Shown here piece by piece: positions 38,231 to 47,302 of a stretch of DNA of 51,819 nt. The stretch comes from a phage. A program made the translations under genes and the position numbers. Below the pieces are notes generated by a model. That model saw only the letters and a program-made list of their open reading frames with translations. It ran no database searches and had not been told where the DNA came from. Where the stretch lies: NCBI GenBank assembly GCA_020279385.1, contig GCA_020279385.1_4133.1. One strand, given 5' to 3'. Each line of letters opens with the position of its first letter. Position 1 is the stretch's first letter.

Positions 38231-38899
<669 letters not shown>

Positions 38900-38902
38900 T
38901 AA

Positions 38903-38926
38903 ACGGGGCGCTTGCGCCCCTTTTGT
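38903..38926 (+). terminator. Terminator-like hairpin
   Basis: ggggcgcttgcgcccc plus short T-run. Confidence 0.45.
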
Positions 38927-38942
38927 CATAGGAGAAAACAAA

Positions 38943-39395
38943 ATGCACGTTATTACAGGTGAGATCAGAAAAGAGCCAAAAGTAAAGCAAATGCCTAACG
39001 GCAGCACGCTATATGTTGTTGAGCTTTCCGAGCGATACAAAGACCGAGAGGGAAATTGGCAGTATACAAACTATGTGTTTTTCTTTAACGCGAAAACAGA
39101 CGGCCTGAATGGTTGGTATGCTGAGGCTTTCCAAGTAGGAAAGGTTATTTCTGTTTCCTGCGATACCTTGCGAGTTGAAACGAGAGAATACAACGGAAAG
39201 ATTTACAGCACCGTGCAGCCTGGCGGATTTGCAAACCTGCTATTTAGCCAGCGCGGAGAAAGCCAGCAACAATATCAGCAGCGAACGCAAGGAGGCTGGG
39301 GGCAACCACAACAGCAACAGCAACAAAATACTCAACAGCAGCCACAGCAAAGCAATCAGCCGCCGATTGACTTTGACGATGATATACCATTCTAA
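38943..39395 (+). CDS. ssb: Single-stranded DNA-binding protein
   Basis: Gln/Gly-rich linker and acidic tail ending DFDDDIPF. Confidence 0.8.
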   Translation: MHVITGEIRKEPKVKQMPNGSTLYVVELSERYKDREGNWQYTNYVFFFNAKTDGLNGWYAEAFQVGKVISVSCDTLRVETREYNGKIYSTVQPGGFANLLFSQRGESQQQYQQRTQGGWGQPQQQQQQNTQQQPQQSNQPPIDFDDDIPF

Positions 39396-39399
39396 TGAC

Positions 39400-39431
39400 A
39401 AAAAGCCCCGCATATGCGGGGCATTTTTTAG
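39400..39431. terminator. Bidirectional terminator
   Basis: A-run, gccccgcatatgcggggc, T-run. Confidence 0.65.
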
Positions 39432-39970
39432 TCTAACGTGGTTGGTTTGTTTACCAGTGCCGCTACAACCGCTTTTAACTCGTCAATTTCTTTTCTCATC
39501 TCATCGTTTTCCGCTTTCAGTTTCTTAACGTGGTGAATCAGTGGAACAGTGAGGCGGTCATACATAACGCCTTCCGCCACCATGCCATTACTTGAAGCAA
39601 TGGCAGGATCTTCTCCTTCTTGCAGCGGTCGCCAGTGAACGTACTCCGGCGCAATTTCTCCAACTTCCTCTGCAATCAGTCCGTACCATCCCCAATCTTT
39701 ACGGTCGCTTTCACAGGTTGACCGATACCACACAGGACGCATTTCAAGCATCAGATCCGCATATTCATCAATAACCGATTCTACGCTGCGCTTATAACGA
39801 GAAGAGGAAGTGGAGCGTAAAACTTGCGACACTCCAGCATTTGGATCAAGCCATAAGTTTGCTGATTGAGCGGTTGTGTTTAGTCTAAACAAATAAAATG
39901 CCTCGTTACCAGTCAGGGGGGTAAAAATTGCCACCATACCTTCCGCTATCCAACTCGGACGATAGATCAT
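39428..39970 (-). CDS. Protein with C-terminal peptidase S74-like intramolecular chaperone domain; probably the 3' part of a frameshifted fibre gene
   Basis: SDRKD...YGLIAEEVGEIAPEYV...YDRLTVPLI...coiled coil; no credible RBS; 65-nt overlap with upstream ORF across a G6/C6 run. Confidence 0.45.
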   Translation of the reverse strand: MIYRPSWIAEGMVAIFTPLTGNEAFYLFRLNTTAQSANLWLDPNAGVSQVLRSTSSSRYKRSVESVIDEYADLMLEMRPVWYRSTCESDRKDWGWYGLIAEEVGEIAPEYVHWRPLQEGEDPAIASSNGMVAEGVMYDRLTVPLIHHVKKLKAENDEMRKEIDELKAVVAALVNKPTTLD

Positions 39971-40166
39971 TTTGTTTTAGATACAGCTTCAACTTATTGT
40001 CAACATCAGTAGTTGATGCTTTTCCTGCAACATCCTGTTTTAGTGTCGAAACATCACTTTTCAGCTTCGTTATATCACCAGGAATAGTAGCAACATCCTG
40101 TTTTAGTGTTGAAACATCATTTTTCAGCCTCGTTATATCACTAGGTATAACAGTTACTGTAGCCAT
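39906..40166 (-). CDS. Small fibre-like protein with tandem 21-aa repeats; probably the 5' part of a frameshifted gene
   Basis: AAGGAG RBS; DITRLKNDVSTLKQDVA / DITKLKSDVSTLKQDVA repeats. Confidence 0.5.
   Translation of the reverse strand: MATVTVIPSDITRLKNDVSTLKQDVATIPGDITKLKSDVSTLKQDVAGKASTTDVDNKLKLYLKQNDLSSELDSGRYGGNFYPPDW
40028..40150 (-). repeat. Tandem 63-bp coding repeats
   Basis: caacatcctgttttagtgtcgaaacatcacttttcagcttcgttatatcacc repeated with few changes. Confidence 0.6.
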
Positions 40167-40178
40167 TTTCCTAACTCC

Positions 40179-40457
40179 TTAAGCCCATTCTCTAATCGGC
40201 TGATCTAACTCAACCACGTAGCCATTAAAAATTACGGCATCAAACTCATCATCAATGATTCGCACATTAACGAAATAGCCGTCGTTCTTTCGCGCAATCT
40301 CCTCGCCATCGTCAGATCGTGCAATTACTGTATAAGTATTGCCGATTACATCGAGCAGGATTGCATCCTGAATGGATTCGTTATCATCCCAATTAATTTT
40401 TCCTAAAAAGGCCGAAAACTCGGCCTTGTCTGCAAATTTTAATGTTAAATCACGCAT
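40179..40457 (-). CDS. Hypothetical protein (about 92 aa) between fibre genes
   Basis: ATG overlaps the tail fibre stop (TAATG). Confidence 0.45.
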   Translation of the reverse strand: MRDLTLKFADKAEFSAFLGKINWDDNESIQDAILLDVIGNTYTVIARSDDGEEIARKNDGYFVNVRIIDDEFDAVIFNGYVVELDQPIREWA

Positions 40458-42424
40458 TAAACAATTTCCCCCAATTGATGATCTGTTAGCGCCTTGTGCC
40501 ATATACGGAAGTTTCTAACGTGCCCGAAAAGATGGCGTTCGCCTGTACTTGTTTGTCCGCCAATCCTTATAGTGGCCGTCGATCTTATGTATCTCCATTC
40601 CGTTTTTGTTTCGCTTGATATTCTGGCATTACTTACACAGCAATTATTGTAATCACTCTTTACTCTCATTCCCATGATCATCTTTTTTAGTTTCGCATTC
40701 TCGTAAACCCTTCGGTTTGAGTTACCTATATCGCAATAAGGGAATCCGTCATTATCTCCCCCAGCAGACCCAAAAGCAAGAATAATTGCCGCTCCGGTTT
40801 GATGGCCGACTGTATCAAAAACACGCGGCGCTGCGTTTGGCGTTATACTCCAGTTTTTATGAGCTTCCACAAGCACTGTAAAAGGCAAATTGTAAAGGTT
40901 GTTTTTTATTGGCAATGTAACCATATCGCTTGCCCTTGTTGCCGGAGTTCCATCAGTGATAACCAGAGACGAAGCAGATGATCCGTTTTCAACTTGGGCG
41001 GTAGCTATAGTCATAAATTGACCTGCGGTAATATCCTGGCCTGCCCTTGCTATCATCTCAACGCGAGCATACATCTTTATATCTTCTGGTGCTCTATATG
41101 TACCCTGGAATAGTACCCATCCACCTGATTCTTGCTTTACATCATACGTCAAATTAACCCCTCCAGTCACATCAAGAGTGACAAGATCAAGCATCACATC
41201 AGCTATAAATATGTTTTCTTGTCCATCAGGACTGAGTTTGGAGAATCGCAATCTTAACCTAACTGGTGAAGAATATTCCTCGCCGATTCTTGCGCGTATT
41301 GAGATAGTTCCATACTCACCATTCGCAACATCCACTACGCGAGATGTACCAGTTGAAATTGCTGTGATCGGGCCAGTATCTTGACTTTCTTTATAAGTGA
41401 ATTTAGCGGAAGTTATACCAAATTCATCTGTAGAATCAGCTGATACGTCCAGTCTGTTTACGTTTCTATTCCATTTGTTCGGTGAATTGCTATTTATGAA
41501 GTTGTTTGTTCTCTGCCCTTCAATCAGCAATCCATCTCTTTCAAAACGCGGTTCATCAATTGCTGCAACAGTAAGAATACCTGATTTGTTAATGTATGTT
41601 GCAGTTGATGCACGTTTAAATTTGACAATCTTGTCGCCCGGCATCGTGATCTCATCATCACCTATGACAATCTTTTTGTATGACGGCGAGAATCCGGTGA
41701 TCATATCCAGGGAATCATTAAATGGTATCCACACGTCAGGCAGAGGCTGCAATAAATCTTTGTAAGGTTCTTCGGCCTGCTTTGCGTATTCCTCCGCTTG
41801 ATCTCTAGCACTTTCAGCACCTGTCTTTGCGGCATTCGCAGCATCACGCGCAGTTTCAGCGCCTTTTCTTGCAGTTTCAGCGCCAGTCTTTGCGGTATTT
41901 GCAGCGTCACGCGCGGATTCAGCGGCAGCCTTTGCAGTATCAGCACCTTTCTTGCTATTCTCTGCATTTGTTGCGCTTGTCTTTGCGTTATTCTCGCTAG
42001 TTTTAGCTGCCTTCTGGCTTGCTGCGGCTGCGTCAGCATTTGTCTTTACGTCTTCCTGGATCTTCTGTAGCTTATCCCAATCAAAATCCTTGATGATCTC
42101 AATAAATCCAGCAAACTCCGATTCCTTCCCCTGGTAATAACGCAACGTTTCCGCTACGTCTTGCGCAAGACCGTCAACCGTTAACGAGTCATGAAGCAAG
42201 ATCAGGTAATTTGTCTTCTTGACTACCGCGCCGCCAGTAGTAATTGCGCGAATGCTTGTATCGCTAATCACTTCCGTAATCACAGCAGCTTGCAAAGGTT
42301 GAGCAAGAAAGAAAATAGTTGCACCTGGGCGAATCAAGGTTAATTGCTCACGCCATTTTGTACCGTAACCAGTTACATAACCTTGCGCGTCCATAGACGC
42401 TTGGCCTTGTCTGTAAATCGCCAT
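40457..42424 (-). CDS. Tail fibre protein
   Basis: 655 aa from ATG 42424 (AGGAGG RBS); Ala/Thr/Lys-rich repeats; C-terminal lectin-like beta region. Confidence 0.65.
   Translation of the reverse strand: MAIYRQGQASMDAQGYVTGYGTKWREQLTLIRPGATIFFLAQPLQAAVITEVISDTSIRAITTGGAVVKKTNYLILLHDSLTVDGLAQDVAETLRYYQGKESEFAGFIEIIKDFDWDKLQKIQEDVKTNADAAAASQKAAKTSENNAKTSATNAENSKKGADTAKAAAESARDAANTAKTGAETARKGAETARDAANAAKTGAESARDQAEEYAKQAEEPYKDLLQPLPDVWIPFNDSLDMITGFSPSYKKIVIGDDEITMPGDKIVKFKRASTATYINKSGILTVAAIDEPRFERDGLLIEGQRTNNFINSNSPNKWNRNVNRLDVSADSTDEFGITSAKFTYKESQDTGPITAISTGTSRVVDVANGEYGTISIRARIGEEYSSPVRLRLRFSKLSPDGQENIFIADVMLDLVTLDVTGGVNLTYDVKQESGGWVLFQGTYRAPEDIKMYARVEMIARAGQDITAGQFMTIATAQVENGSSASSLVITDGTPATRASDMVTLPIKNNLYNLPFTVLVEAHKNWSITPNAAPRVFDTVGHQTGAAIILAFGSAGGDNDGFPYCDIGNSNRRVYENAKLKKMIMGMRVKSDYNNCCVSNARISSETKTEWRYIRSTATIRIGGQTSTGERHLFGHVRNFRIWHKALTDHQLGEIV
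41773..42013 (-). repeat. Low-complexity tandem repeats in tail fibre gene
   Basis: AKTSENNAKTSATNAENSKKGADTAKAAAESARDAANTAKTGAETARKGAETARDAANAAKTGAESARD. Confidence 0.55.
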
Positions 42425-42438
42425 TTGTAAAATCCTCC

Positions 42439-42458
42439 TAAATAGCACTTTTTGCTAA
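42439..42458 (+). promoter_or_regulatory. Conserved intergenic element copy, antisense to both flanking genes
   Basis: taaatagcactttttgctaa overlapping the tail fibre RBS; second partial copy taatagcatttt at about 42471. Confidence 0.45.
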
Positions 42459-42488: not shown

Positions 42489-42515
42489 CAAAAAAAAACC
42501 CCGCATAAGCGGGGC
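42489..42515 (-). terminator. Rho-independent terminator for leftward transcript
   Basis: Minus strand ccccgcttatgcgggg followed by T9. Confidence 0.65.
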
Positions 42516-42530
42516 AATACTATCGGAGTT

Positions 42531-43460
42531 TTATAGCAGTGATTCGGGCTTGTAGAGTTTTCTTTCTACGCCCTGTTTAAAATTATCGTTAACAGGCATC
42601 ATTATGTCAAGCCCTCTTTCCTCTGCCGCGATTATCACATCACGATCATCTTTCCGGCAGACTACGCGCATTCTTCTTTCTCCTTTATATCTATGCGCAA
42701 CCATTTCAAGATTTGAAGGAGTAAAACAGGCCCACACCTCTTGACCAGTTGATAAATGAACATGCTGAGAATCAACCCAATCAAGGCACAAATAGATCGT
42801 CTTATCTGTGCTACCTGTTTTAACAACAGATCCGCGCGTGTAGTCGCGAGCTAAAAACCAATCCTTTCCATCCTCATCAATGAAAAGCACGTTACACATT
42901 TCATCATCCAGCCCGTCATCATGCACCAGGTGACAAGGTAGCGCGTGAATGTATCGACCATCCTTGACGCCGCAATCATAATGACAATCTTCCGGCGGAT
43001 ATATCCCTTCATAAACACTTAAAGGTGTGCGATCGAATTTTAATGTTTTTGCCATCACTTTTTCGCAGCATTCATGACTTGCCTGTTTCCCGAACGAGTA
43101 ACCAGAAGAACGCGAAGCGCGTTTGTTTGCTCTGATCCTGTAATCCTGCGGCACTTTTCCGAGGAATCGGCCCAAAATGTTGATGGCCTCGCTGTAAGGT
43201 TCGCCAGTTAATTTCATTAACCAACCGATCCCCGTGTCGTTGCCGCATACGTTGCAGATCGCGCCGCCGTCGCCCTCTTCATTTAGCTTATCAGTCCATC
43301 TAAAACGATCCTTACCGCCGCAGTGTGGGCAAGGTTGATGCTTTTTGTTGAAAACATCGCTATGCAGTCCGCAAATGCTTTGTAGTGCTTCACGCCATAA
43401 CCCCTTCATATATGGCAAAACATCTTCTTTCTGATAGGTCATAAAGTTTTCAGTATTCAT
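42531..43460 (-). CDS. DNA primase (zinc-ribbon containing)
   Basis: CPHCGG...CNVCG zinc-binding motif; start at internal ATG with GAGGT RBS. Confidence 0.6.
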   Translation of the reverse strand: MNTENFMTYQKEDVLPYMKGLWREALQSICGLHSDVFNKKHQPCPHCGGKDRFRWTDKLNEEGDGGAICNVCGNDTGIGWLMKLTGEPYSEAINILGRFLGKVPQDYRIRANKRASRSSGYSFGKQASHECCEKVMAKTLKFDRTPLSVYEGIYPPEDCHYDCGVKDGRYIHALPCHLVHDDGLDDEMCNVLFIDEDGKDWFLARDYTRGSVVKTGSTDKTIYLCLDWVDSQHVHLSTGQEVWACFTPSNLEMVAHRYKGERRMRVVCRKDDRDVIIAAEERGLDIMMPVNDNFKQGVERKLYKPESLL

Positions 43461-46576: not shown

Positions 46577-47302
46577 ATGGCTAAAGATATTTTAGATAAA
46601 GACACCCATGACGCATTCGTTAGCTTTGAGCAGTTGGAGAGAGAAACGTTTATAGGAAATGCTCTTGCAACTGGAGGCCATTACCAGGCAGTAAAGCCAA
46701 ATCAATATTATAAGGTAAGCGGCAACCGATACGCTGGAAGCACTACGCCGGACGTTGTGCGCGATATGTGGAGCACACCTCAAGAGATCGTGGAGTGGAT
46801 GGAATCAGAATTTGGCGAATACGATCTCGACGCGGCAGCAAGCCAGGAAAACGCAGTTTGCGAGAAGTTCTACAGCAAGGAAACAAACTGCTTAAAGCGT
46901 TGGTGGGGTAGCAACAAGCACGTATGGCTTAACCCGCCGTACAGCAACCCAACTCCATTTATCAAGAAAGCAATTGAGCAAATGGAGCACAACAACCAAA
47001 TTGATGTTTTGTTGCCATCCGACAACTCTACAGCATGGTTTTATGAGGCGCAGAAAAACGCGGCTGAAATTATCTGGATCACTGGCGAGGTTTACGAAGA
47101 GGGTGGAGTAGAATACTCCCGCACCGGAAGAATTGCCTTTGTGTCTGGATTGACTGGTGAGCCTGTGCAGGGCAACAACAAGGGAAGCGTGATTTTTGTC
47201 ATGCGCAAACTTAAAGAAGGCGAGGAGCAGAAAACGCGATACGTTAAGATCAGCGATATTTGCCCTTCTGTAACCGAACGTCGCGCACGCAAACGGAGCT
47301 AA
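46577..47302 (+). CDS. dam: DNA N6-adenine methyltransferase (Dam-like)
   Basis: NPPY motif (WLNPPYSNP); alternative ATG at 46571. Confidence 0.7.
   Translation: MAKDILDKDTHDAFVSFEQLERETFIGNALATGGHYQAVKPNQYYKVSGNRYAGSTTPDVVRDMWSTPQEIVEWMESEFGEYDLDAAASQENAVCEKFYSKETNCLKRWWGSNKHVWLNPPYSNPTPFIKKAIEQMEHNNQIDVLLPSDNSTAWFYEAQKNAAEIIWITGEVYEEGGVEYSRTGRIAFVSGLTGEPVQGNNKGSVIFVMRKLKEGEEQKTRYVKISDICPSVTERRARKRS

What the first reader, a model, noticed from the sequence alone, without database searches (positions are those of the whole stretch)
39906..39970. Homopolymer G6/C6 run at a 65-nt overlap between two fibre-like ORFs, implying a frameshift-dependent fusion
The upstream ORF (39906-40166) has a good RBS and tandem 21-aa repeats. 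The downstream ORF (39428-39970) has no credible RBS, overlaps by 65 nt and carries a C-terminal domain resembling the autoproteolytic intramolecular chaperone of peptidase S74 fibres (SDRKD...YGLIAEEVGEIAPE...YDRLTVPLI). The two frames meet at a six-base homopolymer run (39916-39921). A one-base change or ribosomal slip there would fuse them into one fibre of about 240 aa. Possibilities are a programmed frameshift, slipped-strand variation that switches a fibre on and off, or an assembly indel.
Basis: partly seen in the sequence, partly recalled or inferred. Interest (0 to 1): 0.55.

Follow-up and report, generated by a model that had tools for sequence, protein, structure and literature searches.

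The report
Frameshift-broken accessory tail fibre gene
The two overlapping ORFs are halves of one small tail-fibre gene of a T1-like E. coli phage, split by one extra C in a C5 run; about 40% of sequenced relatives carry their own independent knock-out of this gene, so it is a recurrent mutation, not programmed recoding.

Summary
On the minus strand an 86-aa ORF (40166-39906) and a 180-aa ORF (39970-39428) overlap by 65 nt, and their frames meet at a C6 run (G6 on the plus strand, 39916-39921).

The window is a Warwickvirus (Drexlerviridae). Most relatives have C5 at this site and one continuous gene of 224-245 aa. The conserved motif FYPLTG spans the junction, also in homologues about 57-66% identical that lack the C run. 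So C6 is a +1-nt frameshift allele of a single gene, not a programmed fusion.

The protein has an N-terminal coiled coil (2 x 21-aa repeat), a short tip, and a C-terminal S74/ICA self-cleaving chaperone domain (Ser120/Lys125). It is the last gene of a conserved three-gene lateral-fibre module.

The gene is broken in 14 of 27 genomes compared in detail (15 of 36 counting annotations) by at least 10 kinds of lesion. Flanking genes are intact in all 27. C5->C6 arose at least six separate times. Intact copies show purifying selection, and two metagenome copies are intact.

Best reading: a dispensable accessory fibre lost repeatedly, probably during culture, as with lambda PaPa stf. The C run is simply its most mutable site. 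A reversible contingency switch is not excluded.

The parts
39428..40166 (-). Whole accessory tail-fibre gene (739 nt here, 738 nt when intact, 245 aa), disrupted by a +1 C
   Evidence: Continuous 738-nt CDS in SLUR29, tunus, XY3 and others. Alignment A1 shows a single extra C in the window.
39916..39921 (-). C6 homopolymer (G6 on the plus strand); the ancestral state is C5 inside codons Tyr82-Pro83-Leu84 (TAC CCC CTG)
   Evidence: It is the only G/C run of 6 or more in the window.
39906..40166 (-). Upstream fragment: genuine residues 1-83, then 3 out-of-frame residues and a stop (86 aa)
   Evidence: The N-terminal ~25 aa matches the N-termini of other phage fibre families, and residues 4-54 resemble the trimeric coiled-coil repeats of P22 gp26 and Lpp.
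39428..39970 (-). Downstream ORF (180 aa as listed). Only the part 3' of the C run (39915 onward) is genuine coding sequence, and it has no credible start of its own
   Evidence: Gene callers elsewhere pick Met12 or Val13 and report 168-169 aa.
40027..40149 (-). Tandem 63-nt (21-aa) coiled-coil repeat, 2 copies; copy number varies in frame among relatives
   Evidence: TRF. A 63-nt deletion in 9 relatives and a 42-nt deletion in 6.
39431..39808 (-). S74 / ICA intramolecular-chaperone self-cleavage domain (fused residues 120-245), with predicted nucleophile Ser120 (39808-39806) and Lys125 (39793-39791)
   Evidence: Pfam. K125 is invariant and S120 nearly invariant (>=90%) in A2. AF2 pLDDT is 80-96 in this part. 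Foldseek hits the MyRF ICA domain 7dc3 at E 2e-5, and also 3gw6/3gud.
40175..40179 (-). Shine-Dalgarno AGGAG, 8 nt upstream of the gene's ATG
   Evidence: Read directly from the sequence.
39405..39422 (.). Bidirectional intrinsic terminator hairpin between this gene and the convergent ssb gene
40179..40457 (-). 92-aa gene of unknown function, middle gene of the lateral-fibre module
   Evidence: phrog_1361. Intact in 27/27 genomes. Syntenic in prophages and other phages.
40457..42448 (-). Lateral (side) tail fibre Stf, 663 aa, first gene of the module
   Evidence: phrog_1419 at E 1e-200. Annotated as stf or lateral tail fiber, full length, in 25 of 26 relatives (brachmannus carries no annotation).

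Best explanation
This is one gene, not two. It encodes a 245-aa accessory lateral-fibre protein, and in this phage a single extra C in a C5 run (C5->C6) has knocked it out.

Predicted protein (inferred from domains): an N-terminal docking peptide and a trimeric coiled coil made of 21-aa repeats, then a ~35-aa tip, then a C-terminal S74/ICA chaperone domain. That domain should promote trimer folding and then cut itself off before Ser120, leaving a mature fibre of ~119 aa. By analogy with LtfB of T5-like phages, it probably sits on or beside the main Stf fibre.

Effect of the insertion (shown): translation from the good RBS ends after 86 aa. The tip and chaperone part lie in the +1 frame without their own start, so little or no functional fibre is made. 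At most a low level could come from spontaneous +1 slippage of tRNA-Pro on CCC-C.

Wider pattern (shown): the mutation is real and recurrent. The same insertion arose at least six separate times. Other isolates carry different nonsense, indel and deletion lesions in the same gene, while neighbouring genes stay intact and intact copies evolve under purifying selection.

Cause (inferred): the fibre is useful in nature but dispensable for plaque formation. It is probably counter-selected during enrichment and plaque purification, because faster or stickier adsorption gives smaller plaques, as for lambda Ur versus PaPa. The C run is simply the most slippage-prone site in the gene.
For: Single gene:
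- C5 and one CDS of 224-245 aa in SLUR29, tunus, XY3, tonn, JK16, swan01, PeterMerian and others.
- The conserved FYPLTG motif spans the junction in homologues down to ~57% identity. In these, Tyr-Pro-Leu is TAC CCG CTG or TAC CCA TTA, with no C run.

Real variant:
- C6 occurs in the window, AV105, JLBYU19, orkinos, L070 and L071. Each one's closest compared relative has C5.
- orkinos was sequenced on Illumina NextSeq.
- The Logan re-assembly is identical to the window.

Recurrent loss:
- 14 of 27 genomes are disrupted by C6 (x4), two A-run deletions, delG, a 13-nt deletion, +CC and four nonsense sites. A +TA duplication occurs in another assembly.
- 15 of 36 when annotation-only records are added.
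- The flanking 92-aa gene, the Stf C-terminus and ssb are intact in 27/27; Fisher p = 1.2e-5.

Functional in nature:
- pN/pS = 0.22 among intact copies.
- Both metagenome copies are intact.
- The three-gene module is conserved in prophages; the mini-fibre gene itself matches in 742 of 5,426 complete E. coli genomes, and the module recurs in other phages.

Domain assignment: Pfam S74; PHROG match to the C-terminal 240 positions of a 1,385-position fibre family, E 6e-90; S120/K125 conserved; Foldseek to ICA/IMC structures.

Precedents:
- lambda PaPa stf frameshift (PMC12617516).
- Lateral fibres non-essential on rough K-12 (BASEL preprint).
- Branched LtfA/LtfB fibres (PMC4728585; PMC10644984).
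Against: - No reads were available, so heterogeneity within the stock, and whether C6 is fixed, are unknown.
- Selection in culture is inferred, not shown. Lesions occur on K-12 and on wild isolation hosts alike, and only two uncultured copies were found.
- All six changes at the tract are +1 and none is -1 (p = 0.03). A pure 'any knock-out will do' model does not predict this. It could hint at leaky or reversible expression of C6.
- Where the protein sits in the virion and what it binds are unknown. The middle part of the AF2 model is low-confidence.
Confidence: 0.62

Rival explanations
1. Contingency locus or phase variation. The C run is a selected, reversible on/off switch that lets the phage population hedge between having and lacking the accessory fibre.
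For: - Six independent C5->C6 events at one site, out of about 17 independent lesions.
- All six are +1, which leaves a longer and more mutable run.
- A 2025 preprint reports homopolymer contingency loci in phages and finds that Warwickvirus has the highest density of runs of 6 or more. It also sequenced SECphi27 (10.1101/2025.10.21.683753).
Against: - The ground state is only C5, shorter than typical switch tracts.
- The tract is absent from all homologues outside the genus, although the Tyr-Pro-Leu residues are conserved.
- Most knock-outs are irreversible or lie elsewhere: nonsense changes, a 13-nt deletion, +CC and +TA. Loss does not depend on the tract.
- Reversion has not been observed.
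Confidence: 0.15
2. Standing natural polymorphism or ongoing decay. The knock-out alleles already circulate in wastewater populations because the fibre's receptor is often absent. Isolation merely samples them.
For: - Lesions occur in phages isolated on wild E. coli strains as well as on K-12 (AV105, EC195, KMB46).
- The TAA175 lesion is shared by EC195 and JLBYU07, isolated on different continents.
- The +TA lesion was found in two runs from what look like complex samples.
Against: - Every lesion sits on a tip of the tree. Sisters are 0.1-1.4% different and intact or differently broken, so the lesions are very young.
- pN/pS is 0.22.
- Both metagenome copies are intact.
- Frequency differs by laboratory: JLBYU 4/6 against Citizen Phage Library 0/6.
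Confidence: 0.15
3. Sequencing or assembly artefact. The true sequence is C5 and the extra C is a homopolymer miscall.
For: - Homopolymers are the classic site of indel errors.
- The closest relative, SLUR29, has C5.
Against: - An independent Logan assembly of SRR12199279 gives the identical C6.
- The same C6 appears in five other lineages, including NextSeq-sequenced orkinos.
- Non-homopolymer lesions in the same gene show that real knock-outs are common.
- Across the 9.8-kb conserved block shared with SLUR29, only two isolated single-base indels stand out; the other is at 46577.
Confidence: 0.04
4. Programmed +1 ribosomal frameshift at UAC-CCC-CCU, producing the full-length fibre as the normal mode of expression.
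For: - CCC-C is an intrinsically +1-prone context for tRNA-Pro (established knowledge, Gamper et al. 2015).
- The downstream frame is still fully open in all C6 genomes.
Against: - The two-frame arrangement is not conserved. 23 of the 27 relatives compared have C5, and more distant homologues have a single ORF.
- There is no stimulatory element at prfB-like spacing and no slow or stop codon in the A site.
- The C6 genomes are polyphyletic tips.
Confidence: 0.03

Closest known systems
Lambda PaPa versus Ur-lambda side tail fibre gene stf (Hendrix & Duda 1992; PMC12617516)
   Same: A non-essential side-fibre gene of a siphovirus is split into two ORFs by a single-base frameshift. The phage still forms plaques. 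The fibre speeds adsorption but is dispensable in the laboratory.
   Different: Here the main Stf is intact and the small S74-bearing third gene of the module is lost. The loss is not one historical event: at least 17 independent events were found across field isolates. Selection in culture is inferred, not demonstrated.
Phage contingency loci and homopolymer tracts (T2 agt A-runs, bioRxiv 10.1101/2025.10.21.683753; poly-G tracts in Fletchervirus receptor-binding proteins, as cited there)
   Same: Slippage in a homopolymer inside a phage gene turns the gene off, and it recurs at the same site.
   Different: The tract is only C5 in the 'on' state and is not conserved beyond the genus. Reversibility and elevated within-stock variation are untested. 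Many other lesion types achieve the same loss.
LtfB of T5-like phages DT57C and DT571/2 (branched lateral tail fibres; PMC4728585, PMC10713586)
   Same: A second, shorter fibre protein is encoded next to the main lateral fibre, and the fibre is dispensable on rough hosts. The C-terminal self-cleaving chaperone in LtfA/LtfB is recalled from memory, not read here.
   Different: This protein is much smaller (245 aa; mature form ~119 aa predicted). A 92-aa gene lies between it and Stf. No attachment or receptor data exist.
Peptidase S74 / intramolecular chaperone (ICA) domains of K1F endosialidase, GA-1 neck appendage, T5 pb1 and MyRF (PDB 3gw6, 3gud, 7dc3)
   Same: Same fold (Foldseek). A Ser-x4-Lys motif at the domain start, followed by a long C-terminal helix.
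   Different: Attached to a very short coiled-coil stalk rather than to a long beta-helical spike or fibre. Cleavage has not been shown.

Membership tests
Peptidase S74 / ICA intramolecular-chaperone domain | Sequence match to PF13884 at or above the gathering score | tested here: met
   22.2 bits against a cutoff of 22, E 1.7e-4, for the window's downstream ORF. Many homologues carry a precomputed PF13884 hit.
Peptidase S74 / ICA intramolecular-chaperone domain | Conserved Ser nucleophile and Lys base five residues apart at the domain boundary | tested here: met
   S120 is nearly invariant and K125 invariant across 22 homologues (…RSTSSxRYK…).
Peptidase S74 / ICA intramolecular-chaperone domain | ICA fold | tested here: met
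   The AF2 model has pLDDT 80-96 over residues 130-240. Foldseek hits 7dc3 (MyRF ICA) at E 2e-5, probability 1.0, and more weakly 3gw6/3gud.
Peptidase S74 / ICA intramolecular-chaperone domain | Trimer-dependent autoproteolytic release of the domain | not testable with these tools
   Needs purified protein or virion mass spectrometry.
Programmed ribosomal frameshift | The two-frame arrangement and shift site are conserved among relatives | tested here: not met
   23 of the 27 Warwickvirus copies compared have C5, and all Hanrivervirus, prophage and other homologues examined are single ORFs. The C6 genomes are scattered tips.
Programmed ribosomal frameshift | A slippery site with a stimulator (rare or stop A-site codon, upstream SD-like element, or downstream structure) | tested here: inconclusive
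   CCC-C is slippage-prone, but the A-site codon is CCU and the SD-like GGAAGG and GGTGG motifs lie 11-20 nt upstream, not ~3 nt. Efficiency was not measured.
Contingency locus (phase-variable simple-sequence repeat) | Recurrent length change at the repeat tract | tested here: met
   At least six independent C5->C6 events.
Contingency locus (phase-variable simple-sequence repeat) | The tract is maintained by selection (conserved where synonymous alternatives exist) | tested here: not met
   Homologues in Hanrivervirus, prophages and another phage encode Tyr-Pro-Leu as TAC CCA TTA or TAC CCG CTG. Conservation within the genus is uninformative at 95-99% identity.
Contingency locus (phase-variable simple-sequence repeat) | High-frequency reversible switching within a population | not testable with these tools
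   No read data. Needs deep amplicon sequencing and reversion assays.
Laboratory-type loss of a dispensable side fibre (lambda PaPa type) | The gene is dispensable for plaque formation | tested here: met
   15 plaque-purified isolates carry knock-outs.
Laboratory-type loss of a dispensable side fibre (lambda PaPa type) | Loss is gene-specific and exceeds the background | tested here: met
   14/27 for this gene against 0/27 for each of three flanking coding regions, p = 1.2e-5.
Laboratory-type loss of a dispensable side fibre (lambda PaPa type) | The intact allele predominates outside culture, and knock-outs gain fitness in culture | tested here: inconclusive
   2 of 2 metagenome copies are intact and pN/pS is 0.22. 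The sample is tiny, and fitness was not measured.

The most novel reading that the evidence does not exclude
Loss of this mini-fibre is actively and strongly selected, and the C run works as a quasi-reversible switch. Warwickviruses would then toggle an accessory receptor-binding branch on and off through C5<->C6 slippage, with only +1 events tolerated because C6 stays leaky or revertible. Under this reading, roughly 40% of genomes of this genus in public collections describe phages phenotypically different from their wild ancestors. It would be a natural, multi-isolate example of fibre phase variation or domestication in a virulent coliphage.
Probability: 0.15. Interest if true: 0.65.

Novelty: new member of a known kind. 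Interest (0 to 1): 0.4.

Why it matters
For this window, the practical result is an annotation fix. The two ORFs should be recorded as one frameshifted fibre gene, not as two proteins and not as a recoding site.

The broader point may be worth a small study. About 40% of sequenced Warwickvirus isolates carry independent knock-outs of the same accessory fibre gene, while neighbouring genes are untouched. If isolation and plaque purification cause this, host-range and adsorption data for these phages, including collection and therapy candidates, describe fibre-less derivatives. The gene would also offer a convenient natural system for measuring selection on adsorption organelles. The test is simple: compare isogenic C5 and C6 phages.

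Tried and rejected
- IMG/VR scan with a 28-nt degenerate pattern around the tract: no hits.
- JGI/ENA metagenome scan with an 18-mer: 34 loci, of which only one (L053) was the gene. The rest were chance matches.
- PDB sequence search with the fused protein: only weak coiled-coil hits and nothing for the S74 part. A fold search was needed.
- Full-text search for the SRA run accessions, to learn whether those samples are isolates or metagenomes: nothing found.
- Whole-genome indel census against SLUR29 as an assembly-quality check: swamped by alignment noise in divergent regions. Only the conserved 38.2-48.0 kb block was usable.
- Programmed +1 frameshift and transcriptional slippage: rejected on comparative grounds.
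- Independent translation of the downstream ORF from Met12 or Val13, as some gene callers annotate it: considered unlikely. GGAAGG is only 1 nt from the ATG, and the product would lack the conserved docking and coiled-coil part.
- Literature search for prior reports of this pattern in Drexlerviridae: none found.

Full report
**1. What is in the sequence**

The feature lies on the minus strand.
- An ORF at 40166..39906 (86 aa) follows an AGGAG box 8 nt upstream of its ATG. It contains a perfect-register 2 x 63-nt tandem repeat at 40027-40149.
- A second ORF at 39970..39428 (180 aa) overlaps it by 65 nt (39906-39970) and lies in the +1 frame.
- The only place where both frames are open and homologous protein continues is the run C6 at 39921..39916 (G6 on the plus strand).
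- The upstream frame reads ...GGC AAT TTT TAC CCC CCT GAC TGG TAA. Removing one C gives ...TTT TAC CCC CTG ACT GGT AAC GAG... and a continuous 245-aa ORF.
- The gene ends at a bidirectional hairpin terminator (39405-39422), shared with the convergent ssb gene.
This is the only G/C run of 6 or more in the 51.8-kb window, where shuffles predict 8.7 +/- 3.7.

**2. Where the window comes from**

- The region is 95-99% identical to about 40 records (35 distinct phages) of the genus Warwickvirus (Drexlerviridae, Tempevirinae; T1-like E. coli phages). The closest is SLUR29 at 99.3%.
- The local gene order is conserved: primase, stf (lateral tail fibre, ~660 aa), a 92-aa gene, this gene, then convergent ssb, erf and exonuclease.
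- A Logan re-assembly of run SRR12199279 contains a 47.6-kb contig that is 100% identical to the window over 3,261 nt, including C6. The extra C is therefore not peculiar to one assembler.

**3. One gene, not two**

- I fetched 26 relatives and aligned them. 23 of the 27 copies have C5; four (the window included) have C6. Copies without another lesion carry a single annotated CDS of 245, 231 or 224 aa. The length differences are in-frame losses of 42 or 63 nt in the repeat.
- In a 22-sequence protein alignment reaching ~30% identity, the junction lies inside a conserved motif, G-x-F-Y-P-L-T-G-x-x-A-F-Y-L. The window encodes half of this motif in each frame.
- Homologues outside the genus encode the same Tyr-Pro-Leu as TAC CCA TTA or TAC CCG CTG, so they have no C run at all. 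These are Hanrivervirus KarlJaspers and morffagbaw, a 60-kb phage contig, and an E. coli prophage protein.
- The protein is conserved and the homopolymer is not. That rules out programmed frameshifting as the normal way of expressing this gene.

**4. What the protein is**

- Pfam finds Peptidase_S74 ('chaperone of endosialidase') in the downstream half.
- PHROGs places the fused protein on the last ~240 positions of a 1,385-position tail-fibre family (E 6e-90) and on several other fibre families. Its first 25 residues match the N-termini of other fibre families.
- K125 is invariant and S120 nearly invariant (>=90%) across A2 (...LRSTSSxRYK...). This is the Ser-x4-Lys arrangement of S74 self-cleaving chaperones.
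- An AlphaFold2 model is confident for residues ~125-240 (pLDDT 80-96). Foldseek matches the MyRF ICA domain (7dc3, E 2e-5) and, more weakly, the endosialidase and GA-1 chaperones (3gw6, 3gud).
- Residues 4-54 resemble the trimeric coiled-coil repeats of P22 gp26 and Lpp.
- The predicted product is a short trimeric fibre: a docking peptide, a coiled coil of variable length, a ~35-aa tip, and a chaperone removed by cleavage before Ser120.
- The stf / ~90-aa / ~230-aa module recurs in other phages and in E. coli prophages. The prophage copy of the mini-fibre gene matches in 742 of 5,426 complete E. coli genomes.
- The BASEL authors label the gene 'putative lateral tail fiber chaperone'.
- The closest functional precedent is the short LtfB branch of T5-like lateral fibres (PMC4728585, PMC10644984).

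**5. The unexpected part: the gene is repeatedly broken**

Of the 27 genomes compared base by base, 13 are intact and 14 are disrupted.

| Lesion | Genomes |
|---|---|
| C5->C6 | window, AV105, JLBYU19, orkinos |
| A4->A3 (two different runs) | SECphi27, brachmannus |
| GG->G | ityhuna |
| 13-nt deletion | KMB46 |
| +CC | JLBYU10 |
| TAC->TAA at codon 175 | EC195, JLBYU07 |
| GAG->TAG at codon 167 | tuinn |
| GAA->TAA at codon 219 | JLBYU01 |
| GGA->TGA at codon 159 | Phunderstruck |

- Public Logan assemblies add two more C6 alleles in new backgrounds. L070 is swan01-like with one repeat, and L071 is 99.7% identical to XY3. They also add a +TA duplication, L031.
- Adding records judged from tblastn and annotation only gives 15 of 36 disrupted.
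- On a neighbour-joining tree of the 2-kb locus every lesion is a tip. Its sister differs by 0.1-1.4% and is intact or differently broken. Examples are tonn/ityhuna at 0.1%, JLBYU16/Phunderstruck at 0.36%, and window/SLUR29 at 1.4%.
- C5->C6 therefore happened at least six times.
- The flanking 92-aa gene, the last 113 codons of stf, and ssb are intact in all 27 (Fisher p = 1.2e-5). Annotated stf genes are full length in all annotated relatives.
- Intact copies show pN/pS = 0.22.
- The two copies recovered from metagenome assemblies are intact with C5.
- Nonsense substitutions and a 13-nt deletion cannot be homopolymer miscalls. The Danish phages were sequenced on Illumina NextSeq.

**6. Interpretation**

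*Shown:*
- The window carries a genuine +1 C frameshift allele of a single conserved gene.
- The same gene has been knocked out many times independently in this genus.
- The C5 run is its most frequent, but not its only, point of failure.

*Inferred:*
- The fibre is useful in nature. Supporting points are purifying selection, wide conservation of the module, and lateral fibres as presumed O-antigen binders in Drexlerviridae (BASEL preprint).
- The fibre is unnecessary for plaque formation.
- It is probably counter-selected during enrichment and plaque purification. Lambda is the precedent: its laboratory strain carries a frameshift in stf, whose fibres speed adsorption without affecting plating (PMC12617516).
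- A laboratory effect is hinted at by source: JLBYU 4/6 broken, Danish MG1655 screen 3/8, Citizen Phage Library 0/6. The numbers are small.

**7. Rivals**

- A dedicated contingency switch remains possible. The site recurs, all six events are +1, and phage contingency loci were recently proposed, with Warwickvirus having the highest homopolymer density (10.1101/2025.10.21.683753). Against it, the tract is short, it is not conserved outside the genus, and most other lesions are not readily reversible.
- Standing natural polymorphism cannot be excluded with two uncultured copies.
- A sequencing artefact is unlikely, and so is programmed +1 frameshifting, for the reasons given above.
- Low-level spontaneous +1 slippage on CCC-C may make C6 slightly leaky. 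This rests on general knowledge of tRNA-Pro frameshifting and was not tested.

**8. Novelty and score**

- The feature itself is an ordinary frameshift mutation in a known kind of gene, a new instance of the lambda PaPa situation.
- I found no report of the genus-wide pattern of parallel knock-outs. It is the more interesting by-product and is cheaply testable.
- Interest 0.4.

Noticed in passing
window 39916-39921 and the same site in L002, L006, L008, L070, L071: All six independent length changes at the C5 tract are +1 insertions. No C4 allele was seen in about 40 sequences, although C4 (TAC CCC TGA) would also inactivate the gene (binomial p = 0.03).
   Followed up: partly
relatives L004, L010, L013, L022, L026 (codons 159-219 of the gene): All five nonsense lesions are G:C->T:A transversions, although only 37 of 108 possible one-step nonsense changes in the gene are of that class (p about 0.005-0.014). 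This may reflect an oxidative-damage-type mutation spectrum in phage stocks.
   Followed up: partly
window 40027-40149; relatives L009, L012, L014-L019 and L021-L026: The 21-aa coiled-coil repeat varies in frame. The window has two copies, nine relatives have one copy (63-nt deletion), and six have a 42-nt deletion. More distant homologues have 1-3 repeats, so the stalk length of the mini-fibre is plastic.
   Followed up: partly
whole window: Homopolymer content is very asymmetric: 68 A/T runs of 6 or more, but a single G/C run of 6 or more where 8.7 are expected from shuffles. That single run is the mutant allele itself.
   Followed up: partly
L027 (E. coli GCA_001647315.1 contig LRHQ01000038.1) and 742 of 5,426 complete E. 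coli genomes: In L027 the same three-gene module (659 aa, 89 aa, 227-aa S74 protein) lies at a prophage end next to an integrase and the host dus gene. The 227-aa gene itself matches in 14% of complete E. coli genomes, including E. coli B derivatives such as C41(DE3). All 40 rows listed aligned as a single piece.
   Followed up: partly
window 40179-40502 and 38892-39395: The mechanical ORF list over-extends two neighbours. The 107-aa ORF is annotated as 92 aa in most relatives (start at 40457, overlapping the stf stop). The 167-aa TTG-start ssb ORF is annotated as 150 aa in most relatives.
   Followed up: yes
window 42498-42515 and 42582-42610 (minus strand): A near-consensus sigma-70-like promoter (TTGACA-17-GATAAT) is followed by a strong hairpin plus T-run, just upstream of stf. 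Promoter, then terminator, then gene is an odd order that might indicate attenuation or antitermination control of the fibre module.
   Followed up: no
window 11047 versus SLUR29 (L072): Just upstream of an ATG the window has AAAGGGGGAAATG where SLUR29 has AAAGGGGGGGAATG. This is a second G-run length or sequence difference between the two phages, apparently in a ribosome-binding region.
   Followed up: no
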